NCBI GenBank assembly: GCA_964016885.1
Contig: OZ024742.1
Coordinates: 11,594,001 to 11,658,000 of the forward strand
Reading direction: 5' to 3'
Length of the DNA: 64,000 bases
Source: Eledone cirrhosa
Taxonomy: Eukaryota
Part shown: piece by piece, positions 47,879 to 59,840 of the stretch
How the letters are laid out: the number at the start of each line of letters is the position of its first letter
Numbering within the stretch: position 1 is the stretch's first letter
Notes under the pieces: model-generated
What the model was told of the DNA's origin: nothing
Database searches by the model: none
Seen by the model: the letters and a program-made list of their open reading frames with translations, nothing else
Position numbers and translations under genes: made by a program

Positions 47879-48188
47879 TGTCTTTACACGGACCTTTTAA
47901 TCTGTTTCTCCTCCGTGATCCTGTCTCTATTTTGTACTCCTGAAGAAGGGCTTAAGTCCGACACGTCAAACATTCTTTCCTCTTTCCAATATAAAGCGTG
48001 AAACTAATAAGACTTTGTACCACTTTTTGTTGTCTCCTTGATATATATATATATACATATATATATATATATACATATATATATATATACATATATATAT
48101 GTGTTAGGTAATTCCAAAGGAAAAAAGAGTGCTCTATGTATAGAACAGTGCTATTTAATTAGAAGCTGAACAACACAACATATAACTA

Positions 48189-48258
48189 CTCCATTACCAA
48201 AGGTTTCTGGATCACAGACGATAATAATATATATGTCTGGATCGATCGTCAGATAGAG
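48189..48258 (-). ncRNA. Minimal type I hammerhead ribozyme motif (family 1, left arm)
   Basis: Reverse-complement copy of 48373-48440 with the core intact. Confidence 0.75.
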
Positions 48259-48372
48259 ATGTTATGGATAAAAGATATGAAATGAAATTAAAAATCTGTT
48301 AAAAATTGGAAGTGAGGCTGGTGAATTTTTAACAGATTTTTAATTTCATTTCATATCTTTTATCCATAACAT

Positions 48373-48440
48373 CTCTATCTGACGACCGATCCAGACATAT
48401 ATTATTATCGTCTGTGATCCAGAAACCTTTGGTAATGGAG
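48373..48440 (+). ncRNA. Minimal type I hammerhead ribozyme motif (family 1, right arm)
   Basis: Stem I CTCTAT/ATGGAG; core CTGACGA; stem II GATC-CAGAC...GTCTG-T-GATC; GAAACC-TTT-GGTA (stem III, GUA site). Confidence 0.78.
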
Positions 48441-48807
48441 TAGTTATATTTTGTGTTGTTCAGCTTCTAATTAAATAGCTCTGTTCTATACATAGAGCAC
48501 TCTTTTTTCCTTTGCTTTTCCTTTGCTTTTCCTTCAGAATTACCTAACACACACACTCACACGCACACAAACACATACATATATCTATATCTATATCTAT
48601 CTATATATACACACACACATATATACACACACACACACACACACACATATATATATATATATATATATATATATATATATATATATATATATATATATAT
48701 ATATATATACATAAATATACATATATATATATATATATATATGTATATATCCGTACCATCCCCTGAGTCTTCCATTATTTGTACTGTCTCTTCCATTGAA
48801 TGTTGGT

Positions 48808-56519: not shown

Positions 56520-56930
56520 GTTAACAAACGATGCACCAACACACAACACACGCACACACACACACACACACACACAAACGAGACAACTATACACACACAC
56601 GCACACACACACAGTAGCATTCCACCATGCGAACATACTACACTGCCAATACAGAGGAACAAGGCAACAACAAACGCACACACACACACACACTCAAGCG
56701 AGACAACAGCACACGCACACACACACAGTAACATTTAACAAACAGGCAGAGAATGGACTGACAGCTAGCGCCACCCCACTCCCTCATTCGGCCGCTGACC
56801 TCTGCCCGACCGACCCCATTTCACGCGCACGCGCGCTCTGCCAAATACCTCAGATATTCAAAACAACAAACAGCGGAGGACGCGTTTCGCACCTGTCCGA
56901 CACACAACCTTTCCCCCACCCCGGAAAAAA

Positions 56931-56966
56931 CCCCAGTTGATGGATGTGAATCCGAAATATATAGGG
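56931..56966 (+). ncRNA. Degenerate minimal hammerhead in the Penelope 3' pLTR
   Basis: CCC-CAGTTGA-TGGAT-GTGA-ATCC-GAAATATATA-GGG. Stems are intact but the core differs from CTGATGA at two positions. Confidence 0.55.
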
Positions 56967-57394
56967 ACTATTAAATCTCTCCCATGGTAACTCTCTCTTG
57001 TGTTGTTATTTTTATTTTATCCTTTATACTCTTCCCTTCATCCTCTACACATCTTACACATCTTATACACACCACGCATCTCAACGTACACCCACTTATA
57101 TCTCTCTCTCCACCACCGGAGATTTACCCATTTGCATTGTCGAGGCTTCCAAACGACTTAAAGATATTTACTTATTATTCCACAATGCTTCAAGCAAACT
57201 TCAATACTCTCATATATATATATATATATATATATATATATATATATATATATATATATATAGTGGTGGAACACTGGAAGGTAATATCCGTAGTGGTAGA
57301 GCACTTAGTCCAAGGGACGAGTTAGGTAGAAATGGTTACACAACAGTTAGTTGTGTAACTGTTGTGTAACCACTTATATATATATATATATATA

Positions 57395-59840
57395 TAAACG
57401 GAAAAAATGAAACGAAATTTCATTTCCCACTCTTAGTACGGCTGTTACTTAAATATAAGTATGTACACGTACATACATATATGTATACAGACGTACAGTA
57501 TTAGTTATATATATATACATACATGCACACATATATATATGTACGTATGGATTCACCGAACATTTATTATAATGCTCGGTGTGTTTGTAAACAAACATCC
57601 CGTATTAAGCCGTAGTGTCTAGCAACCATCGTTGCTCGTTTGTTAAACACTGACAAAGAAACGCTGTACTAGTTTCAAGCTTATTAGCTATCGTCAGCAA
57701 CGTATACCTTCCTGTCAGATTGTTGAACGTATATACTTACCTTATGCATATTAACGGCTGAGTAGCCCAATTTGCATATCGAGTGGGTTAATCGGCCGAG
57801 TGCACCGAAAACGATAAACGGAAAAAATGAAACGAAATTTCATTTCGCACTCTTAGTACGGCTGTTACTTAAATATAAGTATGTACACGTACATACATAT
57901 ATGTATACAGACGTACAGTAGCATGTATATATATATACATACATGCACACATATATATATATGTACGTATGGATTCACCGAACATTTATTATAATGCTCG
58001 GTGTGTTTGTAAACAAACATCCCGTATTAAGCCGTAGTGTCTAGCAACCATCGTTGCTCGTTTGTTCAACACTGACAAAGTAACGCTGTACTAGTTTCAA
58101 GCTTATTAGCTATCGTCAGCAACGTATACCTTCCTGTCAGATTGTTGAACGTCTGAAAGTATATACTTACCTTATGCATATTAACGGGTGAGTAGCCCAA
58201 TTTGCATATCGAGTGGGTTAATCGGCCGGGTGCACCGAAAACGATAAACGGAAAAAATAAAACAAAATTTCATTTCCCACTCTTAGTACGGCTGTTACTT
58301 AAATATAAGTATGTACACGTACATACATATATGTATACAGACGTACAGTAGCATGTATATATATATACATACATGCACACATATATATATATGTACGTAT
58401 GGATTCACCGAACATTTATTATAATGCTCGGTGTGTTTGTAAACAAACATCCCGTATTAAGCCGTAGTGTCTAGCAACCATCGTTGCTCGTTTGTTCAAC
58501 ACTGACAAAGTAACGCTGTACTAGTTTCAAGCTTATTAGCTATCGTCAGCAACGTATACCTTCCTGTCAGATTGTTGAACGTATATACTTACCTTATGCA
58601 TATTAACGGCTGAGTAGCCCAATTTGCATATCGAGTGGGTTAATCGGCCGAGTGCACCGAAAACGATAAACGGAAAAAATGAAACGAATTTTCATTTCGC
58701 ACTCTTAGTACGGCTGTTACTTAAATATAAGTATGTACACGTACATACATATATGTATACAGACGTACAGTAGCATGTATATATATATACATACATGCAC
58801 ACATATATATATATGTACGTATGGATTCACCGAACATTTATTATAATGCTCGGTGTGTTTGTAAACAAACATCCCGTATTAAGCCGTAGTGTCTAGCAAC
58901 CATCGTTGCTCGTTTGTTCAACACTGACAAAGTAACGCTGTACTAGTTTCAAGCTTATTAGCTATCGTCAGCAACGTATACCTTCCTGTCAGATTGTTGA
59001 ACGTCTGAAAGTATATACTTACCTTATGCATATTAACGGGTGAGTAGCCCAATTTGCATATCGAGTGGGTTAATCGGCCGGGTGCACCGAAAACGATAAA
59101 CGGAAAAAATAAAACAAAATTTCATTTCCCACTCTTAGTACGGCTGTTACTTAAATATAAGTATGTACACGTACATACATATATGTATACAGACGTACAG
59201 TAGCATGTATATATATATACATACATGCACACATATATATATATGTACGTATGGATTCACCGAACATTTATTATAATGCTCGGTGTGTTTGTAAACAAAC
59301 ATCCCGTATTAAGCCGTAGTGTCTAGCAACCATCGTTGCTCGTTTGTTCAACACTGACAAAGTAACGCTGTACTAGTTTCAAGCTTATTAGCTATCGTCA
59401 GCAACGTATACCTTCCTGTCAGATTGTTGAACGTCTGAAAGTATATACTTACCTTATGCATATTAACGGGTGAGTAGCCCAATTTGCATATCGAGTGGGT
59501 TAATCGGCCGGGTGCACCGAAAACGATAAACGGAAAAAATAAAACAAAATTTCATTTCCCACTCTTACTACGGCTGTTACTTAAATATAAGTATGTACAC
59601 GTACATACATATATGTATACAGACGTACAGTAGTAGAGTAGTACAGTGTTGAACAAACGAGCAACGATGGTTGCTACACTACGGCTTAATACGAGATGTT
59701 TGTTTACAAACACACCGAGCATTATAATAAATGTTCGGTGAATCCATACGTACATATATATATGGGTGCATGTATGTATATATATATAGATACTACTGTA
59801 CGTCTGTATACATATATGTATGCCCGTGTACATACTTATA
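57395..59840 (-). mobile_element. Tandem array of ~5.25 hammerhead-containing 420-430-bp units (non-LTR retrozyme-like) with an inverted terminal segment (59644-59840)
   Basis: Units start at 57395, 57815, 58245, 58667, 59097 and 59527 (partial). Identical family-3 hammerheads lie on the minus strand at 57661-57703, 58083-58125, 58513-58555, 58935-58977 and 59365-59407. (TA)n on both flanks; no meaningful ORF. Confidence 0.88.

What the first reader, a model, noticed from the sequence alone, without database searches (positions are those of the whole stretch)
47930..59840. Hammerhead hotspot: four unrelated ribozyme-bearing, (TA)n-associated elements plus a Penelope element in 12 kb
Seen: ten intact-looking type I hammerheads (48189-, 48373+, 48808+, 49608+, 51924-, and five in the array) and two decayed ones (56931+; 47940+ CTGAAGA-AGGGC-TTAA-GTCC-GACACGTC). 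Most sit in or next to (TA)n and carry an inverted segment, the same architecture as the neighbouring Penelope element. Established: Penelope pLTRs carry minimal hammerheads and often insert with inverted 5' repeats; metazoan non-LTR retrozymes are proposed to use their machinery. Inference: a set of non-autonomous ribozyme retroelements colonising TA microsatellites and generating fold-back DNA.
Basis: partly seen in the sequence, partly recalled or inferred. Interest (0 to 1): 0.75.

Follow-up and report, generated by a model that had tools for sequence, protein, structure and literature searches.

The report
Penelope transposon ends plus one retrozyme
This 12-kb stretch is a TA-rich pile of jumping-gene ends: two of its four hammerhead (self-cutting RNA motif) families are the tails of protein-coding Penelope-type elements, one is a protein-free repeat likely copied by Penelope enzymes, and such piles are common in this genome; the one oddity is a Penelope lineage that keeps the hammerhead shape with two core letters swapped, whose activity is untested.

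Summary
The ten minimal type I hammerheads are real (10 found; 0.02 expected by shuffling). The reading 'four non-autonomous families in a hotspot' is only partly right. Families A and D are the 3' ends (pLTRs) of ORF-bearing Hydra-type Penelope-like elements (PLEs): other copies join RT/GIY-YIG ORFs. B is an old PLE-like end with no ORF traced. Only C (430-bp unit; array plus solo copy) is an ORF-less tandem retrozyme: 24,300 intact motifs genome-wide, fixed ends at (TA)n, one-sided tail, inverted arms sharing rare variants, a compensatory stem I pair. All fold-backs are the known PLE insertion footprint. The 'hotspot' is the upper tail of ordinary: 35 motifs in 40 evenly spaced 10-kb samples, 2 of 40 with four families. 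The 'decayed' motif at 56931 is not decayed. The whole Nematis-like lineage carries core CAGUUGA (88 of 100 listed, none canonical), with compensatory stem II pairs in one sister copy, while relatives from metagenome contigs are canonical; I found no report of it. No RNA data were available, so cleavage and circles are untested. This scan has already reported C-type two-armed retrozymes elsewhere in this genome.

The parts
47880..48040 (+). Family F: old PLE-like 3' end with hammerhead-like motif at 47940-47967 (GACA for GAAA), followed by (TA)n
   Evidence: 2016 first-look candidates; fixed 3' end at TA, no GAAA in the 25 nearest copies, no ORF upstream in 25 loci
48101..48307 (-). Family A, inverted arm with hammerhead (core at 48252, cleavage after 48195)
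48325..48548 (+). Family A, direct arm with hammerhead (48373-48440) and tail ending at (CA)n; 3' end of a Hydra-type PLE
   Evidence: 1634 candidates; ORF with CxCX5C linker lies upstream in sense in L266, L270, L275 and inverted in L020, L262
48751..48884 (+). Family B: old PLE-like 3' end, hammerhead with weakened stems in this copy
   Evidence: 346 candidates, 74-87% identity; two 3' ends and inverted arms elsewhere, no ORF linked in 20 extended loci
49307..49499 (-). Family C solo insertion, inverted arm (unit 235-430, tail end at TA)
49498..49859 (+). Family C solo insertion, arm ending at the tail-less site (unit about 10-375), hammerhead 49608-49650
49974..51462 (.). Two tail-to-tail copies (49974-50572 +, 50859-51462 -) of a 600-bp hammerhead-less repeat G; not part of the ribozyme system
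   Evidence: G in 7 of 40 background samples
51838..52180 (-). Family D: 3' end (pLTR plus tail) of a Hydra-type PLE, hammerhead 51923-51973
   Evidence: 4410 candidates; inverted D abuts the truncated ORF in 8 of 20 ORF-selected loci
52191..52253 (+). Family D, short inverted 5' arm
54245..54420 (-). Element E, inverted tail-less pLTR
54423..56520 (+). Element E, 5'-truncated Nematis-like PLE ORF (RT, GIY-YIG) with a 118-bp deletion at 56236 that removes the cysteine linker and shifts the frame
56931..56966 (+). Hammerhead-shaped motif of the E lineage with core C3-A4-G5-U6-U7-G8-A9, family-wide
56521..57211 (+). Element E, 3' UTR, pLTR and tail ending at (TA)n
   Evidence: 2712 candidates, 97-98%
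57395..59633 (-). Family C array: five head-to-tail units (422/430/422/430/430 nt) plus a 107-nt partial unit, one hammerhead each; tail end at TA
59644..59844 (+). Family C array, inverted arm (unit 171-375) ending at the tail-less site and TA

Best explanation
The region is a TA-microsatellite tract holding stacked insertions from several Penelope-like families: A and D are 3' ends of ORF-bearing Hydra-type elements, E is a broken Nematis-like element, and C is an ORF-less hammerhead repeat likely copied in trans by a Penelope RT-endonuclease. Shown by the sequences: in every family examined copies have a fixed 3' end at a (TA)n or (CA)n run, scattered 5' ends and often an inverted arm; A, B, C, D and E have a second 3' end some 45-85 nt upstream, so a tail sits on one side only. 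Inferred: the GIY-YIG endonuclease cuts a TA run, each DNA end primes reverse transcription on the same RNA at one of those two sites, and the two cDNAs are joined head to head; that makes the fold-back. New TA runs come in with the elements and attract the next insertion. For C, the RT runs through the predicted cleavage site without stopping and produces more-than-unit copies, so the template is likely a re-ligated circle or an uncleaved multimer. The hammerheads are predicted to cleave as dimers (palindromic CUAG stem III in C); none was assayed. The helper for C is most likely Hydra-type (weak evidence).
For: D: in 20 loci chosen by the endonuclease region, inverted D abuts the ORF truncation point in L192, L193, L194, L195, L199, L204, L208 and L203; direct D follows downstream in 6 of 20; background is 5 of 40 samples. 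The D ORF has DKT, CxCX5C, CxxC and CxH and lacks CCHH, the Hydra diagnostics of PMC8557442 section 11. A: among 25 loci chosen by A's upstream leader, the ORF lies in sense upstream in 3 (80-93% to the L020 ORF) and its ORF/UTR in 7; it has CxCX5C, CxxC, CxH. C: 24,300 exact motifs, 0 in the reversed control; in 93 other loci (39, 54) all copies are unit pieces in tandem or inverted, and none is joined to a recurring ORF or UTR. Of 120 arms, 60 end at 430 or 431 and 34 at 369-375; 1 of 120 5' ends lies within 150-165 around the cleavage site at 156. Units of one insertion are closer than units of different loci (median 0.011 tandem, 0.041 inverted, 0.104 between); 11 rare variants are shared by both arms in 9 loci. 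Stem I pair 4 reads U.G in 92, G.U in 38 and A-U in 8 of 183 motifs; in contigs of run X1 the variable sites in the motif are only N7, loop II and that pair. Motif count tracks TA content (rho 0.68, 40 samples). The footprint is the one described for PLEs.
Against: No RNA evidence for transcription, cleavage or circles. Shared variants between arms could also come from later gene conversion, and the window array alternates two variants (422/430 nt), which needs a mixed template or DNA-level duplication. No ORF-bearing parent or helper of C was identified; PLE ORFs of three clades lie near 19 of 54 C loci without a common junction. B has no traced ORF in 20 loci, so it might be non-autonomous. 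D 5' ends also abut an unrelated Neptune ORF in L119, so single junctions are not proof; the case for D rests on the 8 of 20 count. In a preprint only 1 of 9 tested Xenopus retrozyme dimers cleaved.
Confidence: 0.8

Rival explanations
1. All four hammerhead families are independent non-autonomous retrozymes gathered at a special hotspot.
For: In the window A, B and D have no ORF; all are high-copy. Most sampled A and D copies are ORF-less.
Against: A and D are joined to Hydra-type ORFs in other copies and show no short tandem units. ORF-less copies are expected from 5' truncation in a long TA/TG-rich 3' UTR. 2 of 40 background samples hold four different families, 4 of 40 hold four or more motifs.
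Confidence: 0.07
2. C is only the pLTR of an unseen autonomous PLE, amplified into arrays by DNA-level duplication, with no mobility of its own (the satellite route discussed in the Li 2026 preprint).
For: The window array alternates two variants and the solo copy is nearly identical to the array, which shows local DNA-level copying can occur. An origin from a pLTR is plausible.
Against: In 93 loci the sequence upstream of unit position 1 is the unit's own tail, an inversion joint or host DNA, never a recurring UTR; the multimers themselves carry TA-anchored double ends and multi-unit inverted arms (L367, L109, L103); several subfamilies (76-97% identity, spacings 420-516 nt) keep the same form.
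Confidence: 0.1
3. The hammerheads are hitch-hiking, non-cleaving relics kept only because they overlap promoter or priming signals in the pLTR.
For: The E lineage has spread recently (97-98% identity) with a non-canonical core; Naiads thrive without hammerheads. In E the motif overlaps a TATA-like run and lies just upstream of a conserved donor-like AAG/GTAA. No pile-up of cDNA ends at the cleavage site.
Against: Compensatory changes in C stem I and E-lineage stem II point to selection on RNA structure; subfamily variation avoids the core.
Confidence: 0.25

Closest known systems
[quoted passage not shown]
   Same: Type I, short or palindromic stem III, extra nucleotide after A9 in E, mostly solitary copies from truncated PLEs, opposite-strand pairs 100-700 bp apart.
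   Different: C and D close stem II with U.U (a tolerated variant in PMC3088659 section 8, read), A with a mismatch and long stem II. The E core A4/U6 is not among the variants in the parts read.
Hydra-clade PLEs (Craig et al. 2021, PMC8557442; sections 6 and 11 and passages read)
   Same: A and D ORFs show CxCX5C linker, CxxC and CxH, no CCHH; D shows DKT; (TA)n insertion, hammerheads, inverted arm, one-sided tail.
   Different: Tails are about 60-85 nt rather than 30-40; the 3' UTRs are 1-2 kb of TA/TG-rich sequence with an internal duplicated block. No tree against reference Hydra sequences was built.
Metazoan non-LTR retrozymes (Cervera and de la Pena 2020, PMC7229834, passages; Li, Clavereau and Pollet 2026 bioRxiv 10.64898/2026.07.22.740005, parts 1-3 of 5 read)
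   Same: C is an ORF-less 420-500-nt tandem unit, 37% GC, one type I hammerhead per unit, dispersed as monomers to multimers; both papers propose PLE mobilisation.
   Different: C shows the PLE integration footprint itself (two fixed ends, TA target, inverted arms); circRNA expression, shown for coral, mussel and axolotl, is untested here; no parent pLTR found.
Nematis/Neptune-type C-terminal-EN PLEs
   Same: E has DKG, CCHH-type EN, a cysteine linker in intact copies, inverted pLTR and tail.
   Different: PMC8557442 states canonical hammerheads are universal outside Naiad/Chlamys; E's lineage has core CAGUUGA. The label Nematis rests on the reduced linker and on recall, not on a tree.

Membership tests
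Minimal type I hammerhead (A, C, D) | Core CUGANGA / GAAA / UH with stems I-III | tested here: met
Minimal type I hammerhead (A, C, D) | Structure conserved with compensatory changes | tested here: met
   C stem I pair U.G / G.U / A-U; not counted for A and D
Minimal type I hammerhead (A, C, D) | Self-cleavage (as dimer) | not testable with these tools
   needs in vitro assay
Hydra-clade PLE (A, D) | Linked RT plus C-terminal GIY-YIG ORF | tested here: met
   Pfam GIY-YIG only weak, E 0.012
Hydra-clade PLE (A, D) | CxCX5C linker, CxxC/CxH, no CCHH; DKT | tested here: met
   DKT seen in D only, A's N-terminal half not recovered
Hydra-clade PLE (A, D) | Placement in RT phylogeny with reference Hydra elements | not tested
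   no reference sequences fetched
Non-LTR retrozyme (C) | Short tandem unit with one type I hammerhead, no ORF | tested here: met
Non-LTR retrozyme (C) | Dispersed, independently inserted copies | tested here: met
Non-LTR retrozyme (C) | Expressed as linear and circular monomer RNA | not testable with these tools
   no RNA run served
Non-LTR retrozyme (A, D) | ORF-less tandem unit | tested here: not met
   joined to ORFs; no short tandem units
Non-LTR retrozyme or PLE end (B) | Tandem unit, or link to an ORF | tested here: inconclusive
   neither seen in 20 extended loci
Canonical hammerhead (E motif) | U4 and A6 in the core | tested here: not met
   A4/U6 in 88 of 100 listed matches, canonical in 0
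Canonical hammerhead (E motif) | C3-G8 pair, stem II, GAAA, palindromic stem III, UH, stem I | tested here: met

The most novel reading that the evidence does not exclude
A whole, recently active Nematis-like Penelope lineage uses a hammerhead with a reciprocal U4A/A6U core swap (U4C/A6U in a sister copy) that still cleaves, probably as a dimer: a natural core variant that standard CUGANGA descriptors miss, which could also explain PLE clades reported to lack hammerheads.
Probability: 0.25. Interest if true: 0.7.

Novelty: new member of a known kind. Interest (0 to 1): 0.42.

Why it matters
Family C gives genomic support for a route that the papers read propose but do not show: a Penelope enzyme copying a ribozyme RNA from both sides of a break, through the cleavage site. 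It is a young, abundant substrate for testing circular templates. The background count (about 260,000 intact motifs by extrapolation from 400 kb) makes this genome one of the richest hammerhead reservoirs, above the 126,000 reported for axolotl with another descriptor. The E-lineage core is a cheap, decisive test of whether PLE hammerheads must cleave: if it cuts, the consensus core widens; if not, a PLE lineage is spreading while keeping only the fold. The hotspot as such is ordinary.

Tried and rejected
Rfam: no hammerhead hit. RNA evidence: no RNA holder listed, so nothing follows on expression; traces in runs X4 and X6 are too thin to use. 5' ends piling at the cleavage site: rejected for C, 1 of 120. 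A-to-G editing scars (lead from e1-8803865): 54 vs 21 when copies were counted, but 29 vs 21, p 0.48, when counted once per locus, and p 0.07 among variants shared by units; not supported. D as end of the Neptune ORF in L119: rejected, that element has its own hammerhead. A as end of the Neptune ORF in L122: rejected likewise. B's ORF: the upstream search was swamped by (CAT)n repeats; 20 extended loci gave no link; a Poseidon-like endonuclease near B in L125 is a single case. A hairpin with GAG(C/T)(A/G) shortly past the tail-less end is seen in A, B and a third long-stem family, folds in one of two D variants, is weak in C and absent in E and Neptune tails: only a hint to C's helper. The first pair count on the E alignment used misplaced columns and was redone. 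Lunse et al. 2017 on PLE hammerhead variants was not held; one supplement of PMC4209133 and all figures could not be searched, and bioRxiv supplements are closed; any of these may list the E core. The flanks of the window were not sampled.
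Full report
Observation. A descriptor for minimal type I hammerheads finds ten motifs in the 64-kb window, all inside 47930-59840 and at the positions given; 300 shuffles give 0.02 on average. They belong to four sequence families, here called A (fold-back 48101-48548), B (48751-48884), C (solo 49307-49859 and array 57395-59844) and D (51838-52253). 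The Penelope-like element E (54245-57211) has an RT, is 5'-truncated and lacks 118 bp of the linker before the endonuclease. The genome is 3.0 Gb in about 30 large contigs; a cephalopod host is my inference from size and repeat content and from earlier scan notes, not a result.

Common footprint. Searches of the own genome gave 1634, 346, 1150, 4410 and 2712 first-look candidates for A, B, C, D and E (40 scored each). Copies end at a fixed 3' point followed by (TA)n or (CA)n, start at scattered 5' points and often carry an inverted arm. A, B, C, D and E each have a second, tail-less 3' end. This is the PLE pattern of partial tandems, inverted 5' copy and one-sided tail described in PMC8557442 section 6 and PMC3846280 (passages).

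A and D are ends of coding elements. From an endonuclease next to one D copy I searched by the ORF side and extended 20 loci. Inverted D abuts the ORF truncation in 7 loci and in L203; direct D follows downstream in 6. D occurs in 5 of 40 background samples. The ORF shows DKT, CxCX5C, CxxC, CxH and no CCHH, the Hydra diagnostics. For A, a search with its upstream leader gave 25 loci; a second Hydra-type ORF lies in sense upstream in L266, L270 and L275, its ORF or UTR in 7 loci, followed by the A hammerhead in 4; L020 has it inverted at the junction. So the window's A and D are truncated PLE ends. One D copy abuts an unrelated Neptune ORF, a caution against single junctions.

B and F. B is old (74-87%); other copies have a well-formed motif, the window copy is weakened. 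No ORF was linked in 20 extended loci. F (47880-48040) is another old end; none of the 25 nearest copies has GAAA.

C is a retrozyme-type element. The unit is 430 nt (422 with an 8-nt deletion), 37% GC. An exact pattern of its hammerhead matches 24,300 places, 0 in the control. I examined 39 best-scoring loci and 54 loci taken in order along contig 1 (chosen to contain the motif). All consist of unit pieces in tandem or inverted; upstream of position 1 stands the unit's own tail, an inversion joint or host DNA. PLE ORFs of three clades lie near 19 of the 54 without a common junction. Of 120 arms, 60 end at 430/431 and 34 at 369-375; 5' ends are spread, 1 of 120 near the cleavage site. Units within an insertion are closer than between loci, and 11 rare variants are shared by both arms in 9 loci: likely one template for both arms, though conversion is not excluded. 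The window array alternates two variants, and the solo copy is its nearest relative among 180, so some DNA-level copying or a mixed template is needed. Stem I pair 4 covaries across subfamilies; in an unselected contig set the only sites varying at 10% or more inside the motif are N7, loop II and that pair (4 of 43 motif positions against 28 of 227 outside, so the signal is where they fall, not how many).

No special hotspot. Forty evenly spaced 10-kb stretches hold 35 motifs by a slightly relaxed descriptor that still gives 10 in the region; shuffles give 0.01 per 10 kb. 23 stretches have none, 4 have four or more, 2 (L215, L229) have four different families; counts track TA content, rho 0.68. 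The region has five insertion sites and about twice the mean TA content.

The E motif. The 'decayed' motif at 56931 has its core CAGTTGA in 18 of 19 other nearest copies. A pattern leaving core positions 4-7 free matches 3,480 places; of the 100 listed, 88 read CAGTTGA, 12 carry scattered changes and none is canonical (counted by eye). No variant reaches 3% at these positions in two runs of one sample. The core persists in subfamilies whose pLTRs are 69-80% identical (most were selected by a pattern containing it, L237 was not). A sister copy found by chance (L342) reads CCGTTGA with two compensatory stem II pairs (one sequence, 8 of 500 shuffles). Related elements from metagenome contigs carry canonical cores where a motif is visible (L396, L398, L401, L404, L407, L416 among 28 scanned). 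PMC3088659 section 8 reports low activity for A6C, notes that U4 contacts the A6-N7 phosphate, and elsewhere cites a viable U4C viroid variant. Searches for the variant found nothing relevant (scan notes), but Lunse 2017 and figure alignments were not visible. The motif also overlaps a TATA-like run and precedes a conserved donor-like site, so conservation may be partly for promoter function.

Mechanism. Shown: family structure, ORF links for A and D, ORF-less tandem spread of C, double ends, TA targeting. Inferred: endonuclease cut in TA, priming of both DNA ends on one RNA at two sites, head-to-head joining, circular or multimeric template for C, dimeric cleavage. The helper of C is unknown; its U.U stem II closure matches D and a weak tail signal points to Hydra-type elements (lead from earlier scan notes).

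Known versus new. PLE hammerheads (PMC4209133), metazoan retrozymes (PMC7229834) and their PLE origin (2026 preprint) are in print; a recent Octopus repeat annotation does not mention hammerheads (passages), and a search for Penelope, octopus and hammerhead gave no such study. This scan has already described C-type two-armed retrozymes on other DNA of this genome. The finding is therefore a new member of known kinds; the E core is the part worth a bench test.

Noticed in passing
window 56931-56966; L295/L237, L294, L342: Family-wide non-canonical hammerhead core (A4/U6; C4/U6 in a sister copy) in a Nematis-like PLE lineage, with canonical cores in relatives from other organisms.
   Followed up: yes
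window 49974-50572 and 50859-51462; third copy near 61456-61867: A 600-bp hammerhead-less repeat (G) with a hairpin near one end, very abundant (7 of 40 samples), here in two tail-to-tail copies forming a 600-bp inverted repeat.
   Followed up: partly
window 59866-60050 and about 60500-60690: Two direct repeats of about 190 bp flanking 450 bp of purine-rich sequence, bounded by (TA)n; possibly another pLTR-bounded remnant without a descriptor hit.
   Followed up: no
window 1-34790, 35967-45466, 45930-47050: A 35-kb (TTG/TTA/GTG)-type satellite, then tandem copies of an L1/Tx1-like non-LTR element separated by a 12-bp repeat, then an (ACA)n tract.
   Followed up: no
family C unit positions 73-113 (window about 58132-58172, minus strand); E lineage near 56980: Splice-donor-like AAG/GTAAGT in the young C subfamily (AAGGAAAGT in others) and a conserved AAG/GTAA downstream of the E motif; PLE pLTRs are known to hold introns.
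   Followed up: no
L206, L315, L119: 5' ends of C or D are joined directly to truncated ORFs of other PLE families; template switching or insertion with deletion.
   Followed up: partly
many loci: At least 15 further hammerhead families occur in flanks and background samples, including U3-A8 cores and very long stems II.
   Followed up: no
L119 and L120: Pairs of D copies in opposite orientation 2-3 kb apart, one with tail and one without; L120 fits one insertion with nested later inserts, L119 does not.
   Followed up: partly
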